Origin: an uncultured Gammaproteobacteria bacterium | GTDB lineage: Bacteria > Patescibacteriota > Microgenomatia > UBA10105 | DNA: 64,000 bases | Direction: 5' to 3' | Assembly (NCBI GenBank): GCA_964412165.1 | Contig: CAYPMW010000001.1 | Coordinates: forward strand, 16,316 to 80,315 | Shown: positions 31,198 to 48,165 of the stretch, piece after piece | Layout of the letters: each line of letters opens with the position of its first letter | How positions within the stretch are numbered: position 1 is the first letter of the stretch | Program-made: the position numbers and the translations under genes | The notes under the pieces: generated by a model | Told to the model about the DNA's origin: nothing | Database searches by the model: none | The model's input: only the letters and a program-made list of their open reading frames with translations

Positions 31198-31364
31198 CGA
31201 TTGAGGAGATTTGTAAACCTATCGGGTAAGTAGCCTACCCCGGTTTACCTAAACTTAGGAGGTGATTTTTTTGAGTTTTCTACTGAATGGCAATAAAATG
31301 CGTCGCAGATTAGCGCAAATTCTTGCTCAGGCAGCCGAAAGCGAAGCAAATCAGGAAAAGAATA

Positions 31365-32288: not shown

Positions 32289-32604
32289 AAAGCTTTCAGA
32301 TATGAGTAGTAAAGCAATTTTTACAGTACTGCCTGTTGTATGTGCTGGATTAATAATTATTCTTTTAGTTATTCAGGTTGTAGTGTCAAACAGGCTTGCG
32401 GCAATGGGATCTCATTTAGTAGAGATCGAGTCTGACATTAATAATTTGAACAATGAAAAAAATCGATTGAGTGAAAAAATTGCTTCATCTTCGTCCCATT
32501 TGACACTGTTACAAAAAGCTCGTGAGATAGGTTTTACTCAGCCGATAAATCCAATGTTTTATACCTCTCAGCAGTCTGTGGCTTTTGATGGTAGTGATAA
32601 TTAA
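32272..32604 (+). CDS. ftsL: Cell division protein FtsL-like
   Basis: 110 aa with a single TM helix and a coiled-coil (NNLNNEKNRLSEKIASS). It sits in the canonical position between rsmH and ftsI. Confidence 0.5.
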   Translation: MKSNHRKLSDMSSKAIFTVLPVVCAGLIIILLVIQVVVSNRLAAMGSHLVEIESDINNLNNEKNRLSEKIASSSSHLTLLQKAREIGFTQPINPMFYTSQQSVAFDGSDN

Positions 32605-32612
32605 ACTCAAGT

Positions 32613-34289: not shown

Positions 34290-34394
34290 TGGATACATTT
34301 TGTTACAATATACAACTATACGGTAATCCGTAATCAAAGGTAATTAAAATTAATTTAGTGGGATAGTCGATTTCACCTGTAAGTTTACATTAAG

Positions 34395-35132
34395 ATGCTT
34401 AGACAAAACCATAATTGCACTGATTACTTTTCAGTATATTCCAGGTGTAACAATTTTCATTGTTTTATTACAGAGCGTGGTAAAGGGAGTTTTCTTGATA
34501 CAACTGAAGCTCTTTCAAGATTTGATGAAATAAAATCCGAATTGGGTATAAACGATGGATCTTTGTATCTTATGAACCAAGTACACTCAAATAAAATACA
34601 GGTGGTAACCTCGAAGTCTCAAAATAACCCTTACGTTGATGCGCTAGTAACTGCTGAAAAAAATATTTACCTCGGAGTGAGAGTGGCAGATTGCGTCCCT
34701 GTATTTTTTTATGACTCTAAAAAAGAAGTGGCGGGAGTGGCTCATGCAGGATGGAAGGGAACACTTGGTAATATAACCAAAAGGGTCATCGATACGTTTA
34801 TTGCGTTTGGCTCGAGTACCGATGACATATATATAGCTATAGGTCCACATATTGGCCCATGTTGTTATAATGTACCTCTGGAAAGAGCTAATTTATTTTC
34901 CGAAACTTTTAGTGATAGTTTAGTCGTATCCACACGTAGCGGTAAGACTTATCTGGATATAGGTCGAGTAAATTACATACAACTAGTGCACATGGGAATT
35001 AAAAAAAACCATATCGACATCCCACCTACCTGCACATCATGTCAAATCGACCGATTTTTTTCCTTTCGTAAAGACTCAAAACCAACATTTGGTGAAATGT
35101 TAGGCGTTATTGGGATGGAGTCTATAGAATGA
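34395..35132 (+). CDS. pgeF: YfiH/PgeF-family (DUF152, laccase-domain) purine nucleoside phosphorylase / peptidoglycan editing factor
   Basis: VRVADCVPVFFYD...VAHAGWKGT...GPHIGPCCYNV, the family motifs including Cys/His ligands. Confidence 0.75.
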   Translation: MLRQNHNCTDYFSVYSRCNNFHCFITERGKGSFLDTTEALSRFDEIKSELGINDGSLYLMNQVHSNKIQVVTSKSQNNPYVDALVTAEKNIYLGVRVADCVPVFFYDSKKEVAGVAHAGWKGTLGNITKRVIDTFIAFGSSTDDIYIAIGPHIGPCCYNVPLERANLFSETFSDSLVVSTRSGKTYLDIGRVNYIQLVHMGIKKNHIDIPPTCTSCQIDRFFSFRKDSKPTFGEMLGVIGMESIE

Positions 35133-36541
35133 GTATGTCACTCTCAGATTCTACCGTCGCCCACTTCGTAGGCATAAAAGGTGTCGCAATGACTAGTCTG
35201 GCAATCATTGCTCAAGAGATGGGAATACAGGTTACTGGATCAGACACCACAGAAGTTTTTCCGACCGATGCAATACTCAAACGATTTGGCATTACTTATA
35301 TGCATGGTTTTTCTCCTAAGCATATTCCTCATAATTGTGATGTTTTGGTATATACAGGAGCGCATGAAGGACAACAGAATCGAGAAGTCATCGCTGCGAA
35401 GAAAAAGGGAATCGCTACCTTACCTCATGCACGGGCGTTAGCCGACGTGATGCGGGAAAAAAAAACCATATCTATAGCTGGTTCACATGGTAAAACAACC
35501 ACGTCTGCTCTTATAAGCAGTATGTTTACCACAGCGGGAACTAATCCATCATATGCTACCGGTTGCGCTGAAATACTGCATTTAGGCAGACCTGCAAAAT
35601 TCGGAACTGGTGAATGGTTTATCGCTGAGGCAGATGAATATGTGACTGATCCGACATCAGATCAGACGCCTCGTTTCCTCTGGCAGTATCCAGAGATTTT
35701 AACGGTGACTAATATAGACTTTGATCATCCCGATGTGTATAAATCCTTAGGTGATGTAATCATGGCGTTTAAACGATTTGCACAAAACGTGAATAATAGC
35801 GGAGCTATAATTCTTAACTACGATGATGATTCATCTATGAATATTGCCTCTACAGTAAAACGAAAATTGTATACGTTTGGACAACATCAGAAAGCAGATT
35901 TTCATATATCAAAGATTACATTCACGAAATATACTACATTTTTTAACCTGCGTTTTAGAAATGATTGGAACCATACCTTTGGGTTGAATATTCCCGGTGA
36001 ACATAATGTGTACAATGCGTCGGCAGCAATTGCTACAAGTTTTTTGGCTAAAATACCGTTAAAAGCTATAACTAAAGCACTTGGGGCATTTAGGGGTACT
36101 AAAAGAAGATTTGAATTGATTAGAGAAATAAATGGCAAGCAATTGTTTGATGATTACGCTCATCATCCTGCTGAAATTCGAGCCACGCTTAAAGCGGCAA
36201 AAAATCGGTATCCACATAACCGTATAATTGTGATATTTCAACCCCATACGTATAGTCGAACTGAAAGTTTGTTACAGGATTTTGGTAAAGCATTTTCTTT
36301 TGCTGACAAGATCGTTCTCATGCCGATTTATGCGTCCGCCCGGGAAAAAACAAGGAATAGTTCGTTGGATTTACGCCTGATAGAATCCATCAGGAGCAAT
36401 AAACCAGAAGCTGTCCGGATGGCCTCAAAATCGCATATGTTACAATACATCAAGTCCTTTTCCAAACCTGGTGATCTAATCATAACCATGGGTGCTGGTA
36501 GCATTTTCTCGTGGTTGGAAGAAATTTTAGAGATTTTGTGA
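35129..36541 (+). CDS. murC: UDP-N-acetylmuramate--L-alanine ligase MurC
   Basis: N-terminus HFVGIKGVAMTSLAIIAQEMGIQVTGSD and the P-loop GSHGKTTT. Confidence 0.85.
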   Translation: MSMSLSDSTVAHFVGIKGVAMTSLAIIAQEMGIQVTGSDTTEVFPTDAILKRFGITYMHGFSPKHIPHNCDVLVYTGAHEGQQNREVIAAKKKGIATLPHARALADVMREKKTISIAGSHGKTTTSALISSMFTTAGTNPSYATGCAEILHLGRPAKFGTGEWFIAEADEYVTDPTSDQTPRFLWQYPEILTVTNIDFDHPDVYKSLGDVIMAFKRFAQNVNNSGAIILNYDDDSSMNIASTVKRKLYTFGQHQKADFHISKITFTKYTTFFNLRFRNDWNHTFGLNIPGEHNVYNASAAIATSFLAKIPLKAITKALGAFRGTKRRFELIREINGKQLFDDYAHHPAEIRATLKAAKNRYPHNRIIVIFQPHTYSRTESLLQDFGKAFSFADKIVLMPIYASAREKTRNSSLDLRLIESIRSNKPEAVRMASKSHMLQYIKSFSKPGDLIITMGAGSIFSWLEEILEIL

Positions 36542-36543
36542 AT

Positions 36544-37536
36544 ATGGACAAGACATTAGTGCGAGAAACGTTACTCAAAAGACTTGAAAAAGGCCAGGTC
36601 GGATTCGATGTGCCATTGGTTCGATACACGACTCTAAAAATAGGTGGACCTGCAGATTTTTTTTACCGAGCACAGACACGTGATGAACTGGAAAAAGCGA
36701 TTAAAACTGCCATAGCAGTCAAATTACCTTATTTTGTTCTTGGTGGGGGATCAAATGTCGTCATATCCGATAAAGGGTTTCGAGGATTTATCATCAAAAA
36801 CGAATCACGTACGATCACCATCATCAAACGCCAAGGATCAATCAAAAAGGGTAAAATTCAATTGCGCCAGGCATTGGTACAAGCTGATTCCGGTGTGTTG
36901 ATAAATCAGCTGGTACGTTTTACCTGTAATGAAGGACTTGGTGGACTTGAACGCCACTTGGGCTTACCAGGAACTGTTGGTGGTGCTCTCTACATGAATT
37001 CAAAATGGACAAAACCACTTACTTACGTTGGCGATGTTTTATATCATGCGAATATAATTGATAGTTCCGGCAATACTAAAACAGTTAACCAGAGTTACTT
37101 TAAATTCGGATATGATCAAAGCATTCTCCAGGAAACCCACGATACGGTACTTAGCGCTACATTCCGTCTTACCACGACAGATAAGAAATTACTTTGGGAA
37201 CGCGCTGAAAGCTCAATGGCATATCGCAGGCAAACGCAGCCGATGGGAGTGGCCACAGCTGGCTGTACGTTTCGTAATATAGCCTTATCTGATGCAATGC
37301 GTATTTCAACGCCGCGCTATACTACCTCAGCTGGTTACTTGGTAGATCAGGTTGGTTTAAAAACCTTTGCGGTTGGCCAAGCTCGTTACTCGGACAAGCA
37401 TGCAAATTTCATCATCAATTCAGGTGAGGCTAGCGCTCATGAGGTGAAACACCTGATTGACGAAGCGAAGAGGCGGGTGAAAGAAAAATTTTCAGTTGAA
37501 ATTCAGCCTGAAATAGTCTTGGTGGGAGAATTTTAA
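36544..37536 (+). CDS. murB: UDP-N-acetylenolpyruvoylglucosamine reductase MurB
   Basis: TTLKIGGPADFF...VLGGGSNVV (the FAD-binding domain). The start is at the ATG immediately after the murC stop. Confidence 0.8.
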   Translation: MDKTLVRETLLKRLEKGQVGFDVPLVRYTTLKIGGPADFFYRAQTRDELEKAIKTAIAVKLPYFVLGGGSNVVISDKGFRGFIIKNESRTITIIKRQGSIKKGKIQLRQALVQADSGVLINQLVRFTCNEGLGGLERHLGLPGTVGGALYMNSKWTKPLTYVGDVLYHANIIDSSGNTKTVNQSYFKFGYDQSILQETHDTVLSATFRLTTTDKKLLWERAESSMAYRRQTQPMGVATAGCTFRNIALSDAMRISTPRYTTSAGYLVDQVGLKTFAVGQARYSDKHANFIINSGEASAHEVKHLIDEAKRRVKEKFSVEIQPEIVLVGEF

Positions 37537-37542
37537 AATCAT

Positions 37543-38871
37543 ATGGATAAATTCCAAGTAACTGGCGGTAAGGCTCTCCGAGGTGAGATTAGTGTCGGTG
37601 GAGCAAAAAATGTAGCGATGAAAGTGATCATTGCTGGTCTTCTTACCGAAGATACAATTACCATACACAATGTTCCCTTTATTTCATCTGTTTTAGGGAC
37701 GACTAGGATAGTTGAACCATTGGGCATGCGGGTTGAACGTACAGATCATACGCTAACGTTATCATCCCGCGGAGTCGAGAATTATAAAATTCCACTTGAA
37801 TACGGAGGTTTATATAGAACTGCCACCATGGTGATTGGTCCGCTGCTTCACCGATTTGGGAAAGCAGTTGTACCAAACCCGGGAGGATGTAGATTGGGTA
37901 AACGTCCGGTCGATTGGCATATGGGGGCATTACAAAGTATGGGTGCAGACATAGTCTACAAAGATGGTTATTACTATGCTGAAACTCGTAAACTCTCCGG
38001 AGCTCGGATTCATTTTCCCAAAAATACTCATACCGGTACAGAAACAGTGATTTTAGCGGCCTGTCTAGCTAAGGGCGAGACAGTAATTGAAAATGCAGCA
38101 CAAGAACCGGAAATCGATGATCTGATTCGTCTTTTGAATTCAATGGGAGCACTCATCAAAAGAGACGGCGCGACGATTCAAATTACAGGCGTGGCAAAAC
38201 TAAAGGGCACTGAGTTTACTATCATGCCAGATCGAAATGAAGTTGTGTCGTATGCAATAGCTGGAATTATTACCAATGGAGACGTAGTCATACATGGTAC
38301 TCAAAGAGAGCACTTACGTACGTTTCTTGATGCGCTTGACACTGTAAATGCGGGGTGGGAGCCCATATCAAGTACTTCAACTCGATTCTTTTGGAAAGGA
38401 AAACTAAAGAGTAGTCAAATTATTACTCGTCCCCATCCGGGTTTTATGACTGATTGGCAAGCCCCATGGGCAGTATTAGCCTCGTACGCAGAGGGAATAT
38501 CCACAATTCACGAAACAGTATTTGAACAACGATTTACCTATGTAATAGAATTAAGAAAGATGGGTGCAAAAATTGATTTCTTTGATCCACCGGTTGATAA
38601 TCAGCAAGACTTTTATAATTTTAACTGGCATAATCGAGATGAAAAAATGCACCAGGCTATTCGCATACAAGGTGCAACTCGGCTACATGAGGCGGTAGTG
38701 GAAATCTCTGATTTGCGCGCTGGGGCGACTTTGGTGATTGCTGCGCTAGTGGCCCAGGGGACAACAATCATCTACGGAGTAGAACACATTGATAGGGGAT
38801 ACGAAGCGTTTGAGGCTCAACTCACTGAGCTCGGGGCTGAAATAGTCCGCGTGAAGGAGTCAAATTTGTGA
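37543..38871 (+). CDS. murA: UDP-N-acetylglucosamine 1-carboxyvinyltransferase MurA
   Basis: MDKFQVTGGKALRGEISVGGAKNVAMKVI and an overall EPT fold. Confidence 0.9.
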   Translation: MDKFQVTGGKALRGEISVGGAKNVAMKVIIAGLLTEDTITIHNVPFISSVLGTTRIVEPLGMRVERTDHTLTLSSRGVENYKIPLEYGGLYRTATMVIGPLLHRFGKAVVPNPGGCRLGKRPVDWHMGALQSMGADIVYKDGYYYAETRKLSGARIHFPKNTHTGTETVILAACLAKGETVIENAAQEPEIDDLIRLLNSMGALIKRDGATIQITGVAKLKGTEFTIMPDRNEVVSYAIAGIITNGDVVIHGTQREHLRTFLDALDTVNAGWEPISSTSTRFFWKGKLKSSQIITRPHPGFMTDWQAPWAVLASYAEGISTIHETVFEQRFTYVIELRKMGAKIDFFDPPVDNQQDFYNFNWHNRDEKMHQAIRIQGATRLHEAVVEISDLRAGATLVIAALVAQGTTIIYGVEHIDRGYEAFEAQLTELGAEIVRVKESNL

Positions 38872-40160
38872 AAAATGTAACAGTAATAGTTTTGGTTGGA
38901 GGAGAGTCACGCAGATTTTGGCCTCTGTCCAATAAAATACTATTTCCTTTAGCTGGAAAAACGTATTTAGAACGTCAAATTGAAAAACTAAAAAAAAACG
39001 GTTTCCCAAATATCCTTGTAGTAACCACACCGTTTATTAAAGAACGTTTTATCGATAAACAAATTGAAGTAATTGTACAAGAAGGGAAAGGTCAGGGAAG
39101 AGCAATTTTATCAGCCAAAGCTAGTATAGGGGCAAAGCCGATTTTAGTCGTAAATGGAGATGATTTGGTAGAGGATGAGTTATTTACATCGATCAAACCA
39201 TTTATTGAAAGCGAGCAAAATTTTCTGGTGGGGATCAAACCAGCAGGATATTTCCCCGGAGGTTATTTAGAATTTGACGGTTCAGAAATAATAGGCATCA
39301 AGGAAAAACCTGGTGAAGGTAACGAACCAAGTACATGTCTAAAGCTAGTTTGCGATTACTATCATGACTGTTCGAAGCTTCTGTCGTATCTAGAACGTAC
39401 TCAAGAGACTGATTTTGATTCACACTATGAATCTGCCCTGAATTTGATGATGAAAGATGGTGAGCGATTTTCTTTGGTACAATACCGTGGAGTATGGCTG
39501 CCTTTAAAATATCCATGGCATGTTCTGGCGATCATGGATTATGTGCTTCAGAAAGAGTTTACCTCCGCTTATTCTCACCCATCTGTATTTATACATAAAA
39601 CTGCGGAAATTTCAGGCGCGGTCGTAATTGATGCGAACGTTAAAATTATGGAGTATGCAAAAATTGTGGGTCCTACTTATATTGGTGCTGGATCAGTCAT
39701 CGGAAATCATACCATGGTTAGATCGTCAATGATTGGTGAACATGCAGTCATTGGATTCGGATCGGATGTGACTAGAAGCTTTATTGGAAACGAGACCTGG
39801 CTTCATACGAACTACGTTGGTGATAGTGTACTTTCCGATAATGTCGGGGTCGGTGCTGGTGCAGTTTTAGCAAATTTACGGCTAGATGAAAAAGAAATCG
39901 AGTCAAGTGTAAATGGGATAAGAATTAACACTAATCGAATCAAAGCTGGCGCTTTTGTAGGAGAGGGGAGTCGAATCGGAATCCAGGCTCAAGTGATGCC
40001 GGGAATAAAAATTGGCAGATTTAGTCTGATCGGGCCAGGTGTGCTTTTAAACGAAGATTTAGGCGATAATAAACGCTGTTATATCAAACAGGAGCACACG
40101 GTAACTGATTATTATCCAGTTAATATCCCTGATCGAGATCGATTCCGCAAATTGCTGTAA
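38868..40160 (+). CDS. GlmU-like bifunctional sugar-1-phosphate nucleotidyltransferase / LbH acyltransferase
   Basis: N-terminus VLVGGESRRFWPLS (NTP-transferase); the C-terminus has a long run of hexapeptide repeats (IGAGSVIGNHTMV...VGVGAGAVLANL). Confidence 0.5.
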   Translation: MKNVTVIVLVGGESRRFWPLSNKILFPLAGKTYLERQIEKLKKNGFPNILVVTTPFIKERFIDKQIEVIVQEGKGQGRAILSAKASIGAKPILVVNGDDLVEDELFTSIKPFIESEQNFLVGIKPAGYFPGGYLEFDGSEIIGIKEKPGEGNEPSTCLKLVCDYYHDCSKLLSYLERTQETDFDSHYESALNLMMKDGERFSLVQYRGVWLPLKYPWHVLAIMDYVLQKEFTSAYSHPSVFIHKTAEISGAVVIDANVKIMEYAKIVGPTYIGAGSVIGNHTMVRSSMIGEHAVIGFGSDVTRSFIGNETWLHTNYVGDSVLSDNVGVGAGAVLANLRLDEKEIESSVNGIRINTNRIKAGAFVGEGSRIGIQAQVMPGIKIGRFSLIGPGVLLNEDLGDNKRCYIKQEHTVTDYYPVNIPDRDRFRKLL

Positions 40161-40172
40161 CACCTGATACAT

Positions 40173-40913: not shown

Positions 40914-42373
40914 AAATTCAAGTTTTAATCGCCCTAGTCTGGGTAATTCGTATAATAGGAAATTTAATGTCCTTCATACATTTATGGTATGTGAAGGAAT
41001 ACCGGTGGGACAGGATGATGGTTCATTTTCGTCGTACACGTCAGGGTAAAATGCTACTGTTTATTCCTTGGCGAATTCCCCCATTTACCCCAAAAACTAT
41101 GTTGATTTCGATTTTTTCAGTACTCACTTTGATACTTTTATATGTTTTTCAACCCGTAACACTCATATGGAAAATATTCATTCTTGATCTTATCACGTTT
41201 CCGGTGGTCAGTTTTTGGGTAACCATATTAGGAATACCAACCCGAATGTATCACCGACGCGTGATTGCCCGTGCCAGAGAAATTATTGCTTCACGTGATA
41301 ATTTGTTGACCGTTGGAATAACTGGGAGTTATGGTAAAAGTTCCACAAAAGAATATCTGTATACGATCCTCAGTCAAAAATATCAAACACTGAAGACGCA
41401 AACAAGTAAAAATTCGGCAATTGGTGTATCAGAGGTAATCCTAAATCACTTAAAACCTGACTATGAACGATTTGTAGTGGAAATGGGGGCGTATAAAACG
41501 CATGATATTGAAGAAATGGCGCTTATTTCCCGACCACAGGTAGGTATCATTACGGCAATCAATGCACAGCATCAAGATCTTTTTGGATCGCTCGAAAATA
41601 CGATACGCACAAAATACGAACTAATTCAAAATCTTTATGGGAAGCGAATTGGGATTTTTAATGCAGACAACGAGTTTACATTTGAGATGGCAGAGAGAGC
41701 GAAAAAAGAAGAATTTACTGTCTTTATATATACTCTACGTCGGGTAATCTTTAAGACCAATCATGTATTTTGGGGAGAAAAAATTAAAGCCACCTTAAAC
41801 GGTCTTGAGATGACTGTTAAATATAATCATTTTTCCCAGCCTGTAATGGTACCGCTACTCGGCAAGCATCAAGCTCAGAATATACTTGCAGCTATTGCTG
41901 GAGCTGTGGCGTTGGGTATGACCTTTAATGAAGCAGTCAGAGCGGCGAGACTGCTTAGGGCAAATCCCAAAACCATGGAACCATTAGCAGGAATAAACGG
42001 CTCGCTATTTATCAATGATACGTTTAATAATAACCCCGATGCGGCAAAGGCAGCCATAGAATTCCTAAAACTATCAAAAGGTAAAAGAATACTAGTGTTT
42101 CAACCCATGATCGAGTTGGGTGAGTTTACCGATGTTGCTCATCGAGAGATTGGAACGTTGGCAGCTCAAATTTGTGATGAAATTCTTTTAACCAATGACA
42201 ATTTTAACGCACCCTTCATGCAGGGTGTACTTAAAGCTAAAAAAAGGGTTAATCTTAGGATAGCAAGTCCTAAAGGGATTGCCGAGCACCTGGCAATCGT
42301 GGTGGCCAAAGATGATACTGTAGTTTTTAAAGGAAAAGAAGCTGAGCTTTCTTTATCACTGCTTACTAAATAA
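40910..42373 (+). CDS. murF: UDP-MurNAc-tripeptide--D-Ala-D-Ala ligase MurF, with an atypical hydrophobic N-terminal region
   Basis: GITGSYGKSSTKE (P-loop), LGKHQAQNILAAIAGAVALG and INDTFNNNPDAAKAA (MurF-type). The first 110 aa or so are hydrophobic and lack the canonical MurF domain 1. Confidence 0.65.
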   Translation: MKIQVLIALVWVIRIIGNLMSFIHLWYVKEYRWDRMMVHFRRTRQGKMLLFIPWRIPPFTPKTMLISIFSVLTLILLYVFQPVTLIWKIFILDLITFPVVSFWVTILGIPTRMYHRRVIARAREIIASRDNLLTVGITGSYGKSSTKEYLYTILSQKYQTLKTQTSKNSAIGVSEVILNHLKPDYERFVVEMGAYKTHDIEEMALISRPQVGIITAINAQHQDLFGSLENTIRTKYELIQNLYGKRIGIFNADNEFTFEMAERAKKEEFTVFIYTLRRVIFKTNHVFWGEKIKATLNGLEMTVKYNHFSQPVMVPLLGKHQAQNILAAIAGAVALGMTFNEAVRAARLLRANPKTMEPLAGINGSLFINDTFNNNPDAAKAAIEFLKLSKGKRILVFQPMIELGEFTDVAHREIGTLAAQICDEILLTNDNFNAPFMQGVLKAKKRVNLRIASPKGIAEHLAIVVAKDDTVVFKGKEAELSLSLLTK

Positions 42374-42376
42374 TAT

Positions 42377-43600
42377 ATGTTTGAGCGGGCTGTACTTATC
42401 GGTGTATCGCCGAATATTGGTTGGGATGACTGGCGTTTAACACTCAAGTTATTATTGCATCCGAGTGAGTGGTACATAGGCATCTGGGTCGGTAAAGTCG
42501 AGGACTGGTTTCATGATTATTTTCGGATCAAACACGCTGTCAGTTTCGACTCAGCCCGATCGGCTTTATATATCCTACTTACATCACTTGAATTGGATAA
42601 GGGGAGTGAGATACTTCTTCAAGCATTTACCTGCACTGCAGTTCCAAATGCCATTTTGGCTTCTGGTTATATGCCAGTATATACCGATATTGATGCAACG
42701 CTTAATCTTGATGCGTCGGATGCTCAAGCGAAACTCTCAAAAAAGACACGCGCTTTGATCATACAACATACATTTGGCGTACCAGCAAATATGGAGAAGG
42801 TATATTCCTTTTGTAAAAATAATAATCTTATTTTAATCGAAGATTGTGCTCATTCACTTAGTGCAACGTTTAAGGGAAAATTAGTAGGCACATTTGGTAA
42901 AGCTGCGATATTCAGTTTCGGTAGAGATAAGCTAATATCTTCGGTTTGTGGTGGAATGCTCATTACAGATGACTCTATTTTATATCAAAAAATAAAAAAG
43001 AGGCAGTCGGAATTGCCATATCCATCTCGGATTTTGATTATAAGGCGGCTTTTGCATCCGTTGATCACGTTACCCGCTATGTATATATATACCTATTTTA
43101 ATCTCGGTAAATTTCTTATCGCCATTTGTAGAGCAAGTGGACTAATTACACATCCGGTGTCAGACGACGAGTCAAGAGGAGTTATGTCACTTCGCGAGAT
43201 AAAAAAATTTCCGGATGCCCTCGCCCAAATGGCATTTCATCAACTCGAGAAACTTCAGGCTATGAATGTTCGTCGTAAACATATTACCGATAGCTATTTC
43301 AAGGCAATTAAAGGGGTAAAATTACCCTCGAAAACTACTGGAGCAGTGTATTTACGGTTTAATCTCCTCAGTTCACGCGCCGACGAGCTGCGTTTCAAGG
43401 CGAAACAAAGGGGTATACTACTGGGTGCGTGGTATAGCCATATTATTGATCCTAAATCAGTTGCTTATAAAAGTGTACGTTATGAAGTGGGCAGTTGCCC
43501 TCATGCAGAAAAGGCAGCTAAAGAATCGGTTAACCTGCCAACGTATTCACTGTTAACAGACAGACAAATAACTGAGGTGATTAAACTGATATCAGTCTAA
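42377..43600 (+). CDS. DegT/DnrJ/EryC1/StrS-family PLP-dependent sugar aminotransferase-like
   Basis: KHAVSFDSARSALYILL...ILLQAFTCTAVPNAI...FSFGRDKLIS (SFxxxK Lys motif). Confidence 0.6.
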   Translation: MFERAVLIGVSPNIGWDDWRLTLKLLLHPSEWYIGIWVGKVEDWFHDYFRIKHAVSFDSARSALYILLTSLELDKGSEILLQAFTCTAVPNAILASGYMPVYTDIDATLNLDASDAQAKLSKKTRALIIQHTFGVPANMEKVYSFCKNNNLILIEDCAHSLSATFKGKLVGTFGKAAIFSFGRDKLISSVCGGMLITDDSILYQKIKKRQSELPYPSRILIIRRLLHPLITLPAMYIYTYFNLGKFLIAICRASGLITHPVSDDESRGVMSLREIKKFPDALAQMAFHQLEKLQAMNVRRKHITDSYFKAIKGVKLPSKTTGAVYLRFNLLSSRADELRFKAKQRGILLGAWYSHIIDPKSVAYKSVRYEVGSCPHAEKAAKESVNLPTYSLLTDRQITEVIKLISV

Positions 43601-44266
43601 ATGATGCCAAACTTAAATGTAATTTCGCTAGAAGTAGGTATGATGCGCACAAAATGTTATCTGATTATTGATTCTGATTCAAGGGGAGCTGTGGTGATCG
43701 ATCCAGGCGACGAAGCGGAATATATTAAAACCATTTTAAATGACCATCATGCAACGTTGACTGAAATAATCGCCACCCACGGTCATTTCGACCATGTTTT
43801 AGGAGTATTTGAACTCCAGTCAGTTTACAACTGTCCATTTTATATGAATTCCAAAGATGAATTTCTTCTCAAAAAGTTGCCATATTCGGTAAAAAAGTAT
43901 CTGAGTTTGCATGACGAGGTATTCATTCCGGAAATCACGAAGCCTTTACAGGTAGATACATCCATTAAATTTTTTGAATTTGCAGTGGAGATTATCGAAA
44001 CCCCTGGGCATACACCAGGTAGTATTAGCCTGTATGTGAAGGATGAAGGAATTTTATTTACTGGGGATACTCTTTTTGCTCAAGGTGGTGTCGGTAGAAC
44101 CGATTTTTCATATTCCAACGCTTCGAAATTACGCGATTCGATCAAAAAGTTATTTCTATTCCCTTTAGATACCGTCATCTATCCAGGACATGGAGAAAAA
44201 TCAACACTCGAAGTTGAATTAGAGTATCATAAAAAATTTTTTTCATACCCAGACGAAAAAGGTTAA
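43601..44266 (+). CDS. MBL-fold metallo-hydrolase (glyoxalase II-like)
   Basis: ATHGHFDHVLG (HxHxDH), ETPGHTPGS, and a downstream GDTLF/HGE. Confidence 0.7.
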   Translation: MMPNLNVISLEVGMMRTKCYLIIDSDSRGAVVIDPGDEAEYIKTILNDHHATLTEIIATHGHFDHVLGVFELQSVYNCPFYMNSKDEFLLKKLPYSVKKYLSLHDEVFIPEITKPLQVDTSIKFFEFAVEIIETPGHTPGSISLYVKDEGILFTGDTLFAQGGVGRTDFSYSNASKLRDSIKKLFLFPLDTVIYPGHGEKSTLEVELEYHKKFFSYPDEKG

Positions 44267-44281
44267 TTAATAAGATGAATT

Positions 44282-45301
44282 ATGGATTTTTTAAAGATTA
44301 AACTTGTCAATAATCTAAGCCACTGGGATAAATTTATCCTAAACAAAAGTCCCTGGAGTTTTTTTCAGTCATACGCGTGGGGAGACGTACAACGTCTCAT
44401 CGGCATAGAGGTAATGCGTTTTGGAGTCTATGATCGTGACAAAATGCGAGGAGCGTTCCAAATGTTCATCATCAAAGCCCGTCGCGGAACATTTATACAC
44501 GTACGGCACGGGCCGGTTTTTGATACCCGGGACCCACATGCGCTGGTCAACTATTGGAATCTATTTACTCATGAAATGGTACGTATCGCGCATGAAAAAG
44601 GTGCTTTTTGTGTCAGAGTAAGTCCAATGTATAAGGATGATTTGGTGTATAGGCAAATGCTCGGTAATTTACATTATATTCCGGCACCAATTCATCGACT
44701 CGATTTCGAGACATGTTGGTTGCTTGATCTTCAAAAAAACGAAGCAGACCTATTTACATCTATGCGTAAAACCACGCGGTATCTTATAAGACAAGCTATT
44801 AAATTAGGAGTTGAGGTAGAGATCTCCCAAAATATAGATGCGTTTCTCAGATTGTATGAACGTACGACTGTTCGCCACCATTTTATACCCCACAAGGGGA
44901 TTCGTGAGGAATACTCGATTTACACTAAAAACAAGCAAGGCATACTCCTTTTAGGAAAATATCGACGGGAAGTTTTATCAGGAGCACTGATTATTTTTTT
45001 TGGTAATCAAGCTATCTATCATCATGGTGCATCATTAGCCAGTAAAATTCCTGCTTCGTATCTTCTTCAGTGGGTAGCGATACAAGAAGCGAGGAAACGC
45101 AAGCTTAAGTTTTATAATTTTGGAGGAATTGCCCCGCCGAACGTACCGCGTCATCCCTGGAGGGGTTTATCGCTTTTTAAAAGAGGGTTTGGTGGAGAGG
45201 AAATTCATTTCATACACGCTCATGATCTTCCCACGAGTCCTCTCTATGGAGTATCATATACACTGGACAAGATAAGAAAAATAGTTCGCGGATACGAATA
45301 A
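44282..45301 (+). CDS. FemAB/FemX-family aminoacyl-tRNA-dependent peptidoglycan peptide-branch transferase-like
   Basis: The N-terminus WDKFILNKSPWSFFQSYAWGDV is characteristic of FemABX proteins; about 340 aa with a duplicated GNAT-like layout. Confidence 0.55.
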   Translation: MDFLKIKLVNNLSHWDKFILNKSPWSFFQSYAWGDVQRLIGIEVMRFGVYDRDKMRGAFQMFIIKARRGTFIHVRHGPVFDTRDPHALVNYWNLFTHEMVRIAHEKGAFCVRVSPMYKDDLVYRQMLGNLHYIPAPIHRLDFETCWLLDLQKNEADLFTSMRKTTRYLIRQAIKLGVEVEISQNIDAFLRLYERTTVRHHFIPHKGIREEYSIYTKNKQGILLLGKYRREVLSGALIIFFGNQAIYHHGASLASKIPASYLLQWVAIQEARKRKLKFYNFGGIAPPNVPRHPWRGLSLFKRGFGGEEIHFIHAHDLPTSPLYGVSYTLDKIRKIVRGYE

Positions 45302-45349
45302 TACTTAAAGCGCCCTAAAAATTGCCGACTTCGATTATAATAAATATAT

Positions 45350-45721
45350 ATGGAAACTATCAGACAGCATCATATTTCCTTAAAAAATGCATTTTCAGGG
45401 ATTTGGTGGGCACTGAGGACCCAGCCGAACTTTAAGATACATCTCACACTTTCTATACTCGCGGTTTTTTTGGGAGTAATATTTAAACTAACACTCCCTG
45501 AATGGGTGATACTCATCTTTACTATTTTTTGGGGACTGGCGACTGAAATGCTTAACACCAGCATTGAGGCGATAACGGATTTAGTTACTCAGGAATGGAG
45601 ACAGGAAGCTAAGATCGCTAAAGACGTATCAGCCGGGATGATGCTCGTAGTGGCACTTGGCGCGCTGTGTATAGGGTTTATATTATTTGTGCCGAAAATA
45701 TGGCATTTGATTATTACCTAA
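45350..45721 (+). CDS. dgkA: Diacylglycerol/undecaprenol kinase (DgkA family)
   Basis: 123 aa with 3 TM helices and the ATEMLNTSIEAITDLV motif. Confidence 0.7.
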   Translation: METIRQHHISLKNAFSGIWWALRTQPNFKIHLTLSILAVFLGVIFKLTLPEWVILIFTIFWGLATEMLNTSIEAITDLVTQEWRQEAKIAKDVSAGMMLVVALGALCIGFILFVPKIWHLIIT

Positions 45722-45725
45722 ACGC

Positions 45726-46766
45726 ATGATCATTATTCTCACCATATTACTTTTTTCCGTAATTCTTAATAGCTTACTTTTCATACCATTCATTAATTTA
45801 CTATATAAGATCAGATTCCAAAGGCAGAAACAGCAAACTAAGGATGCATTTGATCAGCCTACGCCAATTTTTGATAGATTACATAATACTAAAGTTGGAA
45901 TTCCAGTTGGGGGAGGATTATTGATCCTGTTTACGACAGCAATGTTATTTCCCATACTTCTGTTACTTTTCAAATTTTTCTTCATACCCATTACTGCTCT
46001 TTACTCATTGGAACAAGAAGTAAAAATTGTGATGTTTACGTTTTTATCATTTGCGGTACTTGGATTATATGACGATTTAAAAAAGACATTTGATATTAGA
46101 AAAAATGCTTTTTTCGGATTACGGTTGCGTCATAAACTAATCATTGAAATTATTTTATCACTTATCGTTTCTTACTGGATGTTTTTTGAATTAAAAATTC
46201 AAATAATTCATATACCGTTGGTAGGAGTCGTAAGTTTGGGGGTATTTTTCATACCGTTTGCAGTATTTGTGATGGTTGCTTTCAGTAATGCATATAATAT
46301 TACCGATGGGTTAGATGGACTAGCTGCAGGAATTTTGCTTATATCACTTATGGCGTTTCTGGTGATCTCAGCTTCGATTATTGATACGTCTTTGTCAATT
46401 TTTCTCGCTCTCTGGCTTGGAGGAATTCTGGCATTTTTATACTTTAATGTATATCCAGCCAGGATTATATTGGGAGATGTTGGCGCTCTCTCGTTTGGCG
46501 CCACGTTTGCTGTCATTGGACTACTACTCGGTAAAACGTTTGCCTTACTCGTGATTGGAGGAATTTTTGTGATTGAGGTAGCCTCATCGCTCCTTCAGCT
46601 GTTATCAAAAAAATTTCTCAAAAAGAAGGCATTTGAAGTCTCACCACTACATCTACTACTCCAACACCGAGGGTGGCCTGAGCCTAAAGTGGTAATGAGG
46701 TTTTGGATAGTCAGCATTATACTATCCATCTTAGGCCTTTGGTTTGCCTTAATCACCAGACAATAA
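45726..46766 (+). CDS. mraY: Phospho-N-acetylmuramoyl-pentapeptide transferase MraY
   Basis: AFSNAYNITDGLDGLAAG and a polytopic topology. Confidence 0.9.
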   Translation: MIIILTILLFSVILNSLLFIPFINLLYKIRFQRQKQQTKDAFDQPTPIFDRLHNTKVGIPVGGGLLILFTTAMLFPILLLLFKFFFIPITALYSLEQEVKIVMFTFLSFAVLGLYDDLKKTFDIRKNAFFGLRLRHKLIIEIILSLIVSYWMFFELKIQIIHIPLVGVVSLGVFFIPFAVFVMVAFSNAYNITDGLDGLAAGILLISLMAFLVISASIIDTSLSIFLALWLGGILAFLYFNVYPARIILGDVGALSFGATFAVIGLLLGKTFALLVIGGIFVIEVASSLLQLLSKKFLKKKAFEVSPLHLLLQHRGWPEPKVVMRFWIVSIILSILGLWFALITRQ

Positions 46767-46770
46767 ATCT

Positions 46771-48165
46771 ATGGATTTTTCTGATAAAAAAGTTGCCATC
46801 ATGGGGCTTTCTGTTGAAGGGACTGACTCTGCAAAATTTTTTGCTCACGAGGGTGCAGATGTGCATTGTTTCGACAGGCGTTCAAAAGCAGATTTCGTCG
46901 AATCAATCAAAGACTTGGAGCTACTGGGTGTAAAATTTAATTTTGGACCTGACTACCTTTCAGAACTCGAAACATTTGATCTCATAGTCCGAACGCCAGG
47001 CATGAATTTAAATTTACCCCAGTTAGTTAGAGCAAAAGCACGTGGTCAGATTATCACAAGTCTGACTAAGATATTTTTCGAGTTGTGTCAGGCACCGATT
47101 ATTGGTGTCACGGGTACAAAAGGCAAAGGCACGACGTCAGCACTGATCGGAGAGATTCTAAAAACAAACGGAGATATGGTGTATGTGGGAGGAAATATCG
47201 GTACACCGCTTTTATCCCAAGTCAGAAAGATCACGCGGAAAGATTGGATTGTGCTTGAACTTTCGTCATTTCAACTTGAGGATCTTACTCAGAGTCCACA
47301 CATAGCTGTGGTATTAAATATTACTCAAGATCATCTTAAAAATTTTGATCCTTATTCGACAAATTACCATAAAACGAAAGTAGACTATATTCAAGCAAAA
47401 ACATCTTTAGTTAGGTATCAAACGAATGATGATTTCTGTGTGGTTAATGCCGATTACGACGTTTCGAAGACATTTGCGTCATTAACTCAGGCGCAAAAAT
47501 ATTATTTTTCTAGTAAATTTCCCACTCAAGGAGTATATGTAAAAGATAATCAGCTTATATTAGAAATCCGAAATACCTATTTTGAGATTTGTCGTTCAAG
47601 CGAATTTCAGTTGCGTGGAAAGCATAATTGGGAAAATATTGCTGCTGCCTCGCTTTCTGCTTATCTAGCTGGGGCAAGTAAAGATAGCATCCGGCAGGCT
47701 GTTAGAGCATTTCGAGGTCTGGCGCATCGTTTGGAATATGTGGGTGAAAAAAATGGAATCAAGTATTACGACGATTCATTTTCAACTACGCCTGAAACAT
47801 CAATCGCCGCACTAAAATCTTTCGCAGAACCAATCATATTAATTGTAGGCGGTTCAGAAAAGGGGTCTGATTACACCGAGTTGGGTAAAACTATATCTGA
47901 TTCAAAAATTAGATGCATAATTCTTATCGGTACTACTGCAGAAAAAATTGAGAAAGCTGTTTTTCATGCGTGTGAGAGAGCAAAAATTAGAGTACCTCCA
48001 ATTATTAGGCATCCTGGGAATATGGAAGATATAGTCAAAGCCGCTCGCAGTGTGGCATCACCCGGAGATGTAGTACTACTTTCACCAGCATGTGCCTCAT
48101 TTGATATGTTTAAGAATTACAAAGAACGAGGAAAACTTTTCAAACAATATGCCAAGACGAATTGA
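46771..48165 (+). CDS. murD: UDP-N-acetylmuramoylalanine--D-glutamate ligase MurD
   Basis: N-terminal Rossmann KVAIMGLSVEGTDSAKFF and the P-loop GVTGTKGKGTT. Confidence 0.8.
   Translation: MDFSDKKVAIMGLSVEGTDSAKFFAHEGADVHCFDRRSKADFVESIKDLELLGVKFNFGPDYLSELETFDLIVRTPGMNLNLPQLVRAKARGQIITSLTKIFFELCQAPIIGVTGTKGKGTTSALIGEILKTNGDMVYVGGNIGTPLLSQVRKITRKDWIVLELSSFQLEDLTQSPHIAVVLNITQDHLKNFDPYSTNYHKTKVDYIQAKTSLVRYQTNDDFCVVNADYDVSKTFASLTQAQKYYFSSKFPTQGVYVKDNQLILEIRNTYFEICRSSEFQLRGKHNWENIAAASLSAYLAGASKDSIRQAVRAFRGLAHRLEYVGEKNGIKYYDDSFSTTPETSIAALKSFAEPIILIVGGSEKGSDYTELGKTISDSKIRCIILIGTTAEKIEKAVFHACERAKIRVPPIIRHPGNMEDIVKAARSVASPGDVVLLSPACASFDMFKNYKERGKLFKQYAKTN

What the first reader, a model, noticed from the sequence alone, without database searches (positions are those of the whole stretch)
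34290..48165. The dcw cluster lacks murE, and carries a DegT aminotransferase, an MBL hydrolase and a FemAB-like transferase between murF and mraY
The gene order is ftsI-pgeF-murC-murB-murA-glmU-like-hydrolase-murF-degT-MBL-femAB-dgkA-mraY-murD-ftsW-murG. MurC, MurD and MurF are present but no MurE-like ligase lies in the cluster, where it is almost universally found between ftsI and murF. Instead the cluster contains a FemABX-family aminoacyl-transferase-like gene (44282-45301), a sugar aminotransferase-like gene (42377-43600) and a metallo-hydrolase. Together with glyQS just upstream of the cluster, this hints at a non-canonical stem peptide, branch or amino-sugar modification of lipid II.
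Basis: partly seen in the sequence, partly recalled or inferred. Interest (0 to 1): 0.5.

Follow-up and report, generated by a model that had tools for sequence, protein, structure and literature searches.

The report
CPR cell-wall operon missing murE
The cell-wall gene cluster of this ultra-small (CPR) bacterium really lacks murE and carries extra enzymes, but the extras are a block conserved across the group, including in relatives that keep murE, so murE has most likely just moved elsewhere; the unusual part is a membrane-anchored MurF.

Summary
The gene order is as described, and the whole 64 kb holds only three Mur ligases (MurC, MurD and a MurF-like one), so there is no murE. An independent assembly reproduces the ftsI-pgeF junction.

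The accessory genes do not stand in for murE. The block alpha/beta-hydrolase, MurF-like ligase, DegT, FemX-like is conserved across CPR bacteria: hydrolase upstream in 57/59 loci, and DegT or FemX-like downstream in 39/39. Every relative checked has this block and also keeps a short murE beside ftsI or murC. murD is missing from four related clusters, so Mur ligase genes do move out of this cluster. murE is therefore most likely elsewhere in this genome, but I could not test that.

The FemAB-like protein groups with peptidoglycan Fem transferases (S. aureus FemX, E 1.9e-34), which supports a branched stem peptide. The MBL hydrolase is a variable passenger.

The "MurF" has its UDP-binding N-domain replaced by a conserved three-helix membrane domain. 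Non-CPR homologues (one checked, in Tissierella) sit beside ddl, so it probably is MurF. DegT carries a family-specific insertion of about 50 residues. The roles of DegT and the hydrolase remain unknown.

I found no published description of this MurF form.

The parts
28626..30143 (+). glyS, dimeric-type glycine--tRNA ligase, just upstream of the cluster
   Evidence: NF003211, 575 bits (cutoff 312). Same position in the independent contig L092. A functional link to the Fem transferase was not tested.
30763..34289 (+). mraZ (30763-31197), rsmH (31323-32288), ftsL-like ORF (32272-32604), ftsI (32613-34289)
   Evidence: Pfam MraZ, Methyltransf_5, PBP_dimer + Transpeptidase. The ftsL call rests on position and on a weak DivIC hit in relatives.
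34290..34394 (.). 105-bp ftsI-pgeF spacer, the place where relatives carry a short murE
   Evidence: Relatives L005, L087 and L089 have a 390-406-aa MurE here (TIGR01085, 370-377 bits for L005 and L087, cutoff 257). No MurE-like sequence in the window. Junction reproduced in L092.
34395..35132 (+). pgeF, peptidoglycan editing factor
   Evidence: TIGR00726, 182 bits (cutoff 141).
35129..38871 (+). murC (35129-36541), murB (36511-37536), murA (37543-38871)
   Evidence: TIGR01082, 412 bits. Pfam MurB_C/FAD_binding_4 and EPSP_synthase E 7e-78.
38868..40160 (+). archaeal-type bifunctional GlmU-like sugar-1-phosphate nucleotidylyltransferase/acetyltransferase
   Evidence: TIGR03992, 213 bits (below cutoff 292), NTP_transferase + Hexapep. 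Conserved at this position in Gottesmanbacteria-type loci, sometimes followed by glmS.
40173..40913 (+). alpha/beta serine hydrolase, the constant upstream partner of the membrane MurF; overlaps its start by 4 bp
   Evidence: Pfam Abhydrolase_1. Directly upstream of the ligase in 57/59 testable loci, CPR and non-CPR. Ser84, Asp196 and His224 are 100% conserved in 67 homologues. Best solved relatives are generic esterases and lipases.
40910..41284 (+). N-terminal membrane domain of the MurF-like ligase: three long helices plus a conserved cytoplasmic loop helix with the motif W..KEYRxDRMxxH
   Evidence: Hydropathy segments 1-25, 59-87 and 88-110. Invariant R14, W26, K29, E30, Y31, R32, D34, R35, M36, H39 and D93 in 40 homologues. 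AlphaFold model, pLDDT 92.7, helices 2-28, 33-42, 61-80 and 85-127. Found only in ligases of this family among 1.84 billion representatives.
41285..42373 (+). MurF-like ATP-binding and C-terminal domains of the same protein
   Evidence: TIGR01143, 208 bits (cutoff 288.6), matching profile positions 73-405 only. The nine best solved folds are all MurF, E 1e-27 to 5e-23. P-loop GITGSYGKSST and motif DTFNNNP are present.
42377..43600 (+). DegT/DnrJ/EryC1-family PLP aminotransferase with a family-specific insertion of about 50 residues
   Evidence: PF01041, E 7e-58. Invariant Lys185 and Asp156. The profile aligns to solved sugar aminotransferases in two pieces, with profile positions 213-276 unmatched. 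Directly downstream of the ligase in 41/50 CPR-type loci.
43601..44266 (+). metallo-beta-lactamase-fold hydrolase, a variable insert
   Evidence: PF00753, E 1e-30. GloB model 102 bits, below cutoff 201. Present in the window and L087/L088, absent from L003, L005 and L089.
44282..45301 (+). FemX-like aminoacyl-tRNA-dependent transferase, without the coiled-coil arm of S. aureus FemX
   Evidence: PF02388, 110 bits. Family profile versus the PDB: 6snr FemX E 1.9e-34, FemA 1e-21, Weissella FemX 1e-19. Invariant F299-K300-x-G-F-x-G. Within 5 kb of the ligase in 37/39 CPR-type loci.
45350..46766 (+). DAGK_prokar kinase (45350-45721, probably an undecaprenol kinase) and mraY (45726-46766)
   Evidence: PF01219, E 7e-31. 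TIGR00445 mraY, 187 bits (cutoff 192, just below) and PF00953. The undecaprenol-kinase role is inferred from Gram-positive DgkA homologues (background knowledge).
46771..53696 (+). murD (46771-48165), ftsW (48092-49273), murG (49270-50370), ftsQ (50367-51110), ftsA (51132-52424), ftsZ (52515-53696)
   Evidence: TIGR01087, 373 bits. Pfam FTSW_RODA_SPOVE, Glyco_transf_28, POTRA_1/FtsQ, FtsA, Tubulin/FtsZ_C.

Best explanation
This is the extended division-and-cell-wall operon of a bacterium related to Candidatus Gottesmanbacteria (CPR/Patescibacteria). It encodes nearly the whole lipid II pathway.

The stretch hydrolase, membrane-MurF, DegT, (MBL), FemX-like, kinase, MraY is not a local oddity. 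It is a block conserved across the lineage.

1. The 487-aa ligase is the organism's MurF, the enzyme that adds D-Ala-D-Ala. Its UDP-binding domain 1 has been replaced by a conserved three-helix membrane domain, which places the last ligation step at the membrane next to MraY.
2. The FemX-like enzyme takes an amino acid from an aminoacyl-tRNA and adds it to the free amino group of the position-3 diamino acid of the precursor. This would give a branched, Gram-positive-style stem peptide.
3. The serine hydrolase (always paired with the ligase) and the DegT-type PLP enzyme (usually present) are conserved accessory enzymes acting on the same precursors. Their substrates are unknown.
4. The MBL hydrolase is a passenger.
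5. MurE is not replaced. Relatives with the same block keep a short murE that lacks domain 1, next to ftsI or murC. In this genome murE has left the cluster and most likely lies elsewhere on the chromosome.

Shown here: gene identities, the domain replacement, conserved synteny, murE in relatives, and the authenticity of the junction. Inferred: all enzymatic activities, the acceptor and donor of the Fem enzyme, and the relocation of murE.
For: Gene identities.

Taxonomy: the best relatives of the ligase, MurE and FemAB are named Gottesmanbacteria or Patescibacteria.

The ligase is a MurF:
- MurF is its best NCBIfam model.
- Its nine best solved folds are all MurF.
- It is the only MurF-like gene in clusters that otherwise contain murA, B, C, D, E, G, I and mraY.
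- Non-CPR homologues with the same kind of membrane N-terminus lie next to ddl in 15 loci. One was checked in a named genome, Tissierella sp. MB52-C2.

Membrane domain.

Conserved block: hydrolase 57/59, DegT 41/50, FemAB 37/39, either one 39/39. It occurs in two different genomic contexts: the dcw cluster, and mreC-mreD-pbp2-lysS-serS-...-ftsQ.

Fem membership.

murE in relatives:
- L005, L087 and L089, between ftsI and pgeF.
- L009, L010 and L033, directly before murC.
- All 120 best MurE hits are 366-430 aa. At least 14 share a contig length with ligase hits, which suggests they lie on the same contigs.

Precedent for relocation: murD is absent from the cluster in L003, L007, L033 and L089.

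Junction authenticity.
Against: - The rest of this genome could not be searched, so relocation of murE is an inference, not an observation.
- The ligase scores below the curated MurF cutoff (208 versus 288.6 bits) and lacks the domain that binds UDP in known MurF. Its substrate may therefore differ.
- No ddl, alr or murI is present in the window, and no ddl lies within 10 kb of any CPR-type locus. A supply of D-Ala-D-Ala is assumed, not shown.
- No keto-sugar-forming enzyme for DegT was found in the 64 kb. Nothing explains why DegT and the hydrolase are so tightly linked to MurF.
- The Fem enzyme scores far below the equivalog cutoff for Weissella FemX (35 versus 500 bits), so its donor and acceptor are open.
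Confidence: 0.6

Rival explanations
1. murE is truly lost in this organism. The stem peptide is built without a MurE step. For example, the membrane MurF-like ligase could extend the L-Ala-D-Glu dipeptide directly, and the Fem-like enzyme and DegT could supply the amino group needed for cross-linking.
For: There is no murE in 64 kb, although the cluster is otherwise complete. The junction is real. The ligase is divergent and lacks domain 1.
Against: All invariant residues of the ligase family are retained in the window protein, so nothing suggests a changed specificity compared with relatives that have murE. The accessory block is identical in relatives with murE. murD is likewise missing from four related clusters, although it must exist in those genomes. 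Fem enzymes add to amines and cannot replace a carboxylate-activating ligase (established mechanism).
Confidence: 0.08
2. In CPR bacteria, DegT plus the Fem-like enzyme replace alanine racemase plus Ddl. The Fem-like enzyme would make a dipeptide from an aminoacyl-tRNA, the PLP enzyme would adjust its N-terminal residue, and the membrane MurF would ligate that dipeptide.
For: In the non-CPR branch of the ligase family the neighbour is ddl (15/15 loci) and never DegT or FemAB. In the CPR branch it is DegT and/or FemAB (39/39) and never ddl within 10 kb. Gottesmanbacteria-type clusters hold every other cytoplasmic step, including murI, glmS and glmU, but no ddl or alr. Aminoacyl-tRNA synthetase genes lie next to the block: serS in 25/38 loci and lysS in 18/29.
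Against: The split between the two arrangements is a single clean split on the ligase tree, so it may simply reflect inherited gene order. Whole genomes were not searched for ddl. tRNA-bound amino acids are L-isomers or glycine, whereas the FtsI-type transpeptidase encoded here is expected to need a D-Ala-D-Ala-like end. The Fem profile is closest to lipid II branch-adding enzymes. Eight loci have FemAB without DegT.
Confidence: 0.1
3. DegT, MBL and the Fem-like gene have nothing to do with peptidoglycan. They would modify a surface glycan, for example an aminoacylated amino sugar made by the large glycosylation cluster upstream, and merely sit inside the operon.
For: The window carries a 27-kb glycan cluster with a PglC-like Bac_transf, a hexapeptide acetyltransferase and many glycosyltransferases. 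DegT enzymes normally act on nucleotide keto-sugars. One NCBIfam Fem model is linked to exopolysaccharide systems.
Against: DegT and FemAB follow the MurF-like gene in dozens of loci that have no such glycan cluster nearby, flanked by pbp2 and ftsQ or by mraY. The genes overlap or abut one another. The Fem profile matches peptidoglycan Fem enzymes far better than the others. No sugar dehydratase or oxidoreductase is present in the window.
Confidence: 0.12

Closest known systems
Canonical dcw cluster (mraZ-rsmH-ftsL-ftsI-murE-murF-mraY-murD-ftsW-murG-murC-ddl-ftsQAZ)
   Same: Same core genes on the same strand. mraZ-rsmH-ftsL-ftsI lie at the 5' end, and mraY-murD-ftsW-murG-ftsQ-ftsA-ftsZ at the 3' end.
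   Different: No murE and no ddl. pgeF, murC, murB, murA, a GlmU-like gene, a serine hydrolase, DegT, MBL, a Fem transferase and a DgkA-type kinase are inserted between ftsI and mraY. Relatives add glmS and murI.
MurF, UDP-MurNAc-tripeptide:D-Ala-D-Ala ligase (E. coli 1GG4, A. baumannii 4QF5, P. aeruginosa 4CVK)
   Same: The central ATP-binding and C-terminal domains match. MurF is the best sequence model and the nine best solved folds are MurF, at 23-25% identity over about 385 columns. Non-CPR homologues lie next to ddl.
   Different: Domain 1 (about 80 residues, UDP-binding) is replaced by a ~125-residue domain of three membrane helices plus a conserved basic loop. The score is below the curated cutoff. 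It is always preceded by a serine hydrolase gene.
FemX / FemA / FemB peptidoglycan branch transferases (S. aureus FemX 6SNR, Weissella viridescens FemX 1NE9)
   Same: The two-lobed Fem fold family and the conserved F-K-x-G-F-x-G segment. The profile matches over nearly the full length. The length of 339 aa is close to Weissella FemX (335 aa), with no coiled-coil arm.
   Different: Only about 20% identical, and far below the equivalog cutoff. Donor tRNA and acceptor are unknown. It is fixed in an operon with MurF and a DegT enzyme, an arrangement I do not know from Firmicutes.
MurT/GatD lipid II amidation complex
   Same: MurT is a Mur-ligase homologue that lacks domain 1 and acts on lipid-linked rather than UDP-linked precursor. 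It is the precedent for the idea that loss of domain 1 goes with a lipid substrate. Weak sequence hits only.
   Different: MurT has a DUF1727 C-terminal domain, is not an integral membrane protein, and pairs with a glutaminase. The protein here is MurF-like throughout domains 2 and 3.
ddl-murF operon of Firmicutes, as seen in Tissierella sp. MB52-C2 (CP133261)
   Same: Hydrolase, membrane-MurF, ddl lie in a row. The ligase has the same kind of membrane N-terminus, with related motifs LHMxQLEGY and KKPLVFT.
   Different: In the non-CPR loci the ligase is followed by ddl and never by DegT or FemAB. The CPR form is the reverse.
VlmL/VlmA of valanimycin biosynthesis (a seryl-tRNA synthetase next to a Fem-like seryl transferase; recalled from background knowledge, not tested here)
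   Same: An aminoacyl-tRNA synthetase gene adjacent to a Fem-family transferase. This resembles serS and lysS upstream of the block in many CPR loci, and glyS upstream here.
   Different: In CPR genomes these are probably the only copies of the housekeeping synthetases, so the adjacency may be coincidental.

Membership tests
MurE (TIGR01085, UDP-N-acetylmuramyl-tripeptide synthetase) | An ORF in the window that scores as MurE | tested here: not met
   Only three Mur-ligase ORFs in 64 kb. None has MurE as best model (MurE scores 79-94 bits versus cutoff 257). tblastn with a relative's MurE finds only murC and murD.
MurE (TIGR01085, UDP-N-acetylmuramyl-tripeptide synthetase) | Presence in close relatives at the canonical position | tested here: met
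   L005 scores 377 bits and L087 370 bits (cutoff 257). Both proteins lack domain 1 (profile positions 71-74 onward). The Arg of the DNPR motif is kept (EDYR or EDPR).
MurF (TIGR01143) | Whole-protein score at or above the curated cutoff | tested here: not met
   208 bits versus 288.6 (window). 240 (L005), 208 (L003) and 234 (Tissierella) are also below.
MurF (TIGR01143) | Central ATP-binding domain with P-loop, and a C-terminal domain of MurF type | tested here: met
   Mur_ligase_M E 1e-34 and Mur_ligase_C E 7e-12. The nine best solved folds are MurF.
MurF (TIGR01143) | N-terminal domain 1 that binds the UDP moiety | tested here: not met
   Alignments start at profile position 73 and at E. 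coli MurF residue 92. Residues 1-125 form three membrane helices instead.
MurF (TIGR01143) | Ligates D-Ala-D-Ala to the tripeptide precursor | not testable with these tools
   The only support is contextual: adjacency to ddl in 15 non-CPR loci, and being the sole MurF-like gene in complete clusters.
FemABX transferases (PF02388) | Pfam gathering score and full-length similarity to solved peptidoglycan Fem enzymes | tested here: met
   110 bits versus cutoff 24. Profile versus 6snr E 1.9e-34, 1lrz 1e-21, 1ne9 1e-19.
FemABX transferases (PF02388) | Conserved Phe-Lys segment near the C-terminus, used in known FemX for tRNA-end binding and catalysis | tested here: inconclusive
   F299, K300, G302, F303 and G305 are invariant in 23 CPR sequences and align with FKK of S. 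aureus FemX and FemA. Equivalence to Weissella F304/K305 is recalled from memory. The printed alignment to 3gkr stops before that segment.
FemABX transferases (PF02388) | Uses aminoacyl-tRNA to acylate the side-chain amine of position 3 in UDP-MurNAc-pentapeptide or lipid II | not testable with these tools
   The equivalog model NF047883 scores only 35 bits versus cutoff 500.
DegT/DnrJ/EryC1 sugar aminotransferases (PF01041) | Family score and the catalytic PLP lysine | tested here: met
   E 7e-58. Invariant K185 in FSFGRDK and D156 in EDCAH.
DegT/DnrJ/EryC1 sugar aminotransferases (PF01041) | Membership of a characterised subfamily (PseC, LegC, WecE, ArnB and others) | tested here: not met
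   The best is PseC at 140 bits versus cutoff 423. A ~50-residue insertion has no counterpart in solved enzymes.
DegT/DnrJ/EryC1 sugar aminotransferases (PF01041) | A partner enzyme that makes the keto-sugar substrate | tested here: not met
   No dehydratase or sugar oxidoreductase among the annotated ORFs of the 64 kb, or in the conserved block.
Metallo-beta-lactamase fold / glyoxalase II (PF00753, TIGR03413) | Fold-family score; equivalog score; conservation within the block | tested here: inconclusive
   Pfam cutoff met (107 bits). GloB equivalog not met (102 versus 201). Present in only 2 of 5 Gottesmanbacteria-type genomes examined.

The most novel reading that the evidence does not exclude
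In CPR bacteria, and in some Firmicutes, the last steps of stem-peptide assembly are not cytoplasmic reactions on UDP-MurNAc-peptides. They would take place at the membrane, on lipid-linked MurNAc-peptide. They would be carried out by a MurE that has lost its UDP-binding domain and a MurF whose UDP-binding domain has become a three-helix membrane domain with a conserved basic loop. These would work in a complex with a serine hydrolase, a PLP enzyme with a hydrophobic insertion, and a lipid II-type Fem transferase. In that case MraY would accept a shorter precursor, and the textbook order of the pathway would not hold in this large part of the bacterial tree.
Probability: 0.15. Interest if true: 0.85.

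Novelty: new variant of a known kind. Interest (0 to 1): 0.55.

Why it matters
Peptidoglycan precursor synthesis is one of the best-studied bacterial pathways and a major antibiotic target. MurE and MurF are described as soluble enzymes that recognise the UDP handle through domain 1.

This analysis indicates that a whole radiation of uncultured bacteria, and at least one cultured Firmicute genus (Tissierella), use a MurF with that domain replaced by a conserved membrane domain. This MurF is always encoded with a serine hydrolase. In CPR bacteria it comes with a Fem transferase and usually a PLP enzyme.

If the ligase works on lipid-linked substrate, the order of steps in the pathway differs in these organisms. 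Even if it does not, the block predicts that CPR cell walls are branched like those of Gram-positive bacteria. It also points to two conserved enzymes of unknown function in an essential pathway.

The missing murE by itself is probably a gene-order event of little consequence.

Tried and rejected
- Whole-genome search for murE. This was not possible. The window's proteins occur only on short Logan contigs of 1.5-7.5 kb from SRR12113383/4. The single genome-contig scan returned only two distant loci and not the source genome.
- A degraded murE remnant in the window. Relaxed tblastn (E up to 10) shows nothing in or near 34290-34394.
- Misassembly at the ftsI-pgeF junction. Rejected, because an independent contig spans it. 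The exact-match look-up of FtsI failed, probably because of the single mismatch.
- ddl in CPR genomes. A Ddl profile search returned only Firmicutes (Tissierellia), so it says nothing about CPR. Supplementary Table S6 of PMC11809585 lists murA-G and mraY only, and is not informative on ddl.
- Literature searches. Searches on CPR murE, murF, FemX, ddl and alanine racemase, and on a transmembrane MurF, found no description of this ligase form. The only relevant result was a passing listing of femX in Patescibacteria MAGs.
- Membrane segments in DegT, the hydrolase or the Fem protein. None reaches the hydropathy threshold, so only the ligase is an integral membrane protein.
- Promoter and terminator scans. 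Counts are at chance level.
- tRNA genes near the cluster. None; the only tRNA is tRNA-Val at 61853.
- The AFDB fold library was unavailable.
- The hydrolase profile matches only generic esterases and gives no specific function.

Full report
**1. Observation**

Pfam and NCBIfam scans identify, all on the + strand: glyS, mraZ, rsmH, an ftsL-like ORF, ftsI, pgeF, murC, murB, murA, an archaeal-type GlmU-like enzyme, an alpha/beta-hydrolase, a MurF-like ligase, a DegT aminotransferase, an MBL-fold hydrolase, a FemAB-family protein, a DAGK_prokar kinase, mraY, murD, ftsW, murG, ftsQ, ftsA and ftsZ.

- MurC (412 bits, cutoff 335) and MurD (373 bits, cutoff 212) pass their equivalog cutoffs.
- A phmmer and tblastn search of the whole 64 kb with the three window ligases, and with a relative's MurE, finds no fourth Mur ligase.
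- The ftsI-pgeF spacer is 105 bp.
- A 7.5-kb contig assembled independently from run SRR12113383 is 99.99% identical to window 28535-36008 and spans the same junction.
- The rest of the window is a 27-kb glycosylation cluster, recO, ileS, rodA and housekeeping genes. It holds no ddl, alr, murI or sugar dehydratase.

**2. The organism**

The closest homologues of the ligase, the Fem-like protein and relatives' MurE are named Candidatus Gottesmanbacteria or Patescibacteria. The nearest ligase homologue outside the source sample is only about 50% identical, so this is a divergent lineage in or near that group.

**3. The 'murF' is unusual**

- MurF is its best model, but the score is 208 bits against a cutoff of 288.6, and the alignment covers only profile positions 73-405.
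- The first ~125 residues are hydrophobic.
- In 40 homologues this region holds invariant residues: R14, W26, K29, E30, Y31, R32, D34, R35, M36, H39 and D93. The motif is W..KEYRxDRMxxH.
- An AlphaFold model (pLDDT 92.7, pTM 0.88) gives helices 2-28, 33-42, 61-80 and 85-127, followed by a Mur-ligase body.
- The nine best solved matches of that body are all MurF, with E 1e-27 to 5e-23.
- The many basic residues in the 27-62 loop and after helix 3 place the loop and the ligase body in the cytoplasm. This is an inference from the positive-inside rule.
- Searched alone against 1.84 billion representative proteins, the N-terminal domain hits only 45 proteins. Nearly all are 470-560-aa ligases or fragments of them.

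So the UDP-binding domain 1 of MurF has been replaced by a dedicated membrane domain.

**4. The accessory genes form a conserved block**

I kept the 80 best loci. I annotated all loci with the window proteins as references.

| Feature | Count |
|---|---|
| Hydrolase directly upstream of the ligase | 57 of 59 testable loci |
| DegT directly downstream (CPR-type loci) | 41 of 50 |
| FemAB-like gene within 5 kb (CPR-type loci) | 37 of 39 |
| DegT or FemAB-like (CPR-type loci) | 39 of 39 |

The block occurs in two contexts:
- Gottesmanbacteria-type dcw clusters: murE-murC-murB-murA-glmU-(glmS)-hydrolase-ligase-DegT-Fem-(dgkA)-mraY.
- A second type: mreC-mreD-pbp2-lysS-serS-hydrolase-ligase-DegT-Fem-ftsQ.

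Fifteen further loci have hydrolase-ligase-ddl, or ddl-hydrolase-ligase, and never DegT or Fem. These form a separate clade on a ligase tree.
- Their Ddl proteins are closest to Tissierellia, which are Firmicutes.
- The cultured Tissierella sp. MB52-C2 has hydrolase-ligase(504 aa)-ddl.
- These ligases also have a membrane N-terminus, with related motifs LHMxQLEGY and KKPLVFT.
- The Tissierella Ddl passes Ddl subfamily cutoffs.

Adjacency to ddl is what one expects of a working MurF in Firmicutes.

**5. murE**

Three relatives have a 390-406-aa Mur ligase between ftsI and pgeF: GCA_040960095.1, GCA_018829345.1 and GCA_964621305.1. Two of these were scored, and both pass the MurE model: 377 and 370 bits, cutoff 257. 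Three more loci have murE directly before murC.

These MurE proteins lack domain 1. Their alignments begin at profile position 71-74.

A profile search shows that this short form is the rule. All 120 best hits are 366-430 aa with only the middle and C-terminal Pfam domains.

The relatives' MurE keeps the arginine of the DNPR motif, as EDYR or EDPR. In characterised MurE enzymes this goes with a carboxyl-bearing diamino acid such as diaminopimelate. That point is background knowledge and an inference.

Because every one of these relatives also has the full hydrolase-ligase-DegT-Fem block, the block cannot be a replacement for MurE.

murD is absent from the cluster in L003, L007, L033 and L089. 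Mur ligase genes therefore do move out of the cluster in this clade. I put relocation of murE at roughly 80-85% and true loss at under 10%. I could not test this, because neither the genome nor longer contigs of this organism were reachable.

**6. The Fem-like protein**

It passes the Pfam cutoff (110 bits, cutoff 24). A profile of 23 CPR homologues matches:
- S. aureus FemX (lipid II:glycine glycyltransferase) at E 1.9e-34.
- FemA at 1e-21.
- Weissella FemX at 1e-19.
- A tRNA-dependent peptide synthase from natural-product chemistry at only 3e-11, over half its length.

F299-K300-x-G-F-x-G is invariant and aligns with the FKK segment of the staphylococcal enzymes. At 339 aa it lacks the coiled-coil arm.

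femX has been listed in passing for Patescibacteria MAGs (PMC12992704).

**7. The other block members**

*DegT.* It keeps the PLP lysine (K185) and Asp156. No characterised subfamily claims it; the best is PseC at 140 bits against a cutoff of 423. Its profile aligns to solved sugar aminotransferases in two pieces, leaving a conserved, rather hydrophobic insertion of about 50 residues unmatched. That insertion does not reach the hydropathy threshold for a membrane segment. No enzyme that could make a keto-sugar substrate is in the block or the window.

*Hydrolase.* It has a fully conserved Ser-Asp-His triad across 67 CPR and non-CPR homologues. It resembles only generic esterases.

*MBL protein.* It is found in the window and one related genome, and not in three others. 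Other relatives carry a Colicin_V/CAP protein at that spot instead.

*DAGK_prokar gene.* Sitting before mraY, it fits an undecaprenol kinase. This is an inference from Gram-positive DgkA.

**8. Aminoacyl-tRNA synthetase neighbours**

- glyS lies upstream of mraZ here.
- In the second context, serS (25/38) and lysS (18/29; LysRS confirmed against solved structures) sit directly upstream of the hydrolase.

This fits a tRNA-dependent step. However, these are probably the only copies of housekeeping genes, so I treat it as a hint only.

**9. Most likely mechanism**

- MurC and MurD build UDP-MurNAc-L-Ala-D-Glu.
- A MurE encoded elsewhere adds the diamino acid.
- The membrane-anchored MurF adds D-Ala-D-Ala close to MraY.
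- The Fem-like enzyme adds a branch amino acid from an aminoacyl-tRNA to the side-chain amine of position 3.
- The kinase supplies undecaprenyl phosphate.
- The hydrolase and DegT act on the same precursors in ways not yet known.

Shown: identities, domain architecture, synteny and murE in relatives. Inferred: every activity.

Confidence in this composite is about 0.6. The rivals are true loss of murE (0.08), DegT plus Fem replacing Alr plus Ddl (0.10), and a glycan rather than peptidoglycan role for DegT/Fem/MBL (0.12).

**10. Comparison with what is known, and novelty**

The cluster is a dcw cluster. The Fem protein is a member of the Fem family. The ligase works like MurF and is its closest relative, but it fails two formal membership tests: the curated score and domain 1.

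Loss of domain 1 has a precedent in MurT, which acts on lipid II. That is the basis for the most novel reading, that MurE and MurF here act on lipid-linked precursor. I give it about 15%.

I found no description of a membrane-domain MurF, of the hydrolase pairing, or of the MurF-DegT-Fem operon in the searchable literature. Public annotation simply calls these proteins MurF.

I rate this a new variant of a known kind. The murE gap is probably unimportant. The conserved block and the altered ligases are the interesting part.

**11. Limits**

- No whole-genome search was possible.
- The tree is a simple neighbour-joining tree.
- Locus annotation relied on single-sequence phmmer references.
- The contig-length matching is indirect.
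- All functional statements await biochemistry.

Noticed in passing
window 40910-41284; also L091 8467-9981 (Tissierella sp. MB52-C2, CP133261): MurF with its UDP-binding domain replaced by a conserved three-helix membrane domain. It is widespread in CPR bacteria and also present in cultured Firmicutes, so it could be studied in a cultivable organism.
   Followed up: yes
L005 2435-3616; L087 1634-2854; L089 2493-3665: Gottesmanbacteria MurE is uniformly short (384-406 aa). It lacks domain 1 and starts with a conserved hydrophobic helix just before the P-loop. All 120 best database hits have this form.
   Followed up: partly
L049 6414-9285 and about 25 other loci: lysS and serS sit immediately upstream of the hydrolase-MurF-DegT-Fem block, after mreC-mreD-pbp2, in a large group of CPR loci. 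This may be relevant to the tRNA donor of the Fem enzyme.
   Followed up: partly
L087 17711-19124 (also L088): A bAvd accessory gene plus a reverse transcriptase (RVT_1), which looks like a diversity-generating retroelement, is inserted inside the dcw cluster between the Fem gene and dgkA in a related genome.
   Followed up: no
L087 12743-13711; L089 12624-13592: A Colicin_V + CAP domain protein lies between DegT and the Fem gene in two relatives, at the spot where the window has the MBL gene.
   Followed up: no
window 14655-17801: A 1048-aa protein combines an O-antigen-ligase (Wzy_C) domain with a PMT-type glycosyltransferase domain. It lies within a 27-kb glycosylation cluster (window 1-27 kb) that holds at least five PMT-like proteins.
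   Followed up: no
window 30182-30601 and 53697-54206: Two conserved-position ORFs (139 aa between glyS and mraZ; 169 aa right after ftsZ) have no Pfam or NCBIfam match.
   Followed up: no
window 48092-48165: The longest ftsW ORF (GTG start) overlaps the end of murD by 74 bp. The true ftsW start is probably further downstream.
   Followed up: no
L004 8761-10552: A Microgenomates genome (SPRUCE_40) has two tandem, more distant Fem-like genes in a different, non-dcw context.
   Followed up: no
window 61943-64000 (- strand, runs off the end): A large protein with a GH130-like segment and a C39-like peptidase domain.
   Followed up: no
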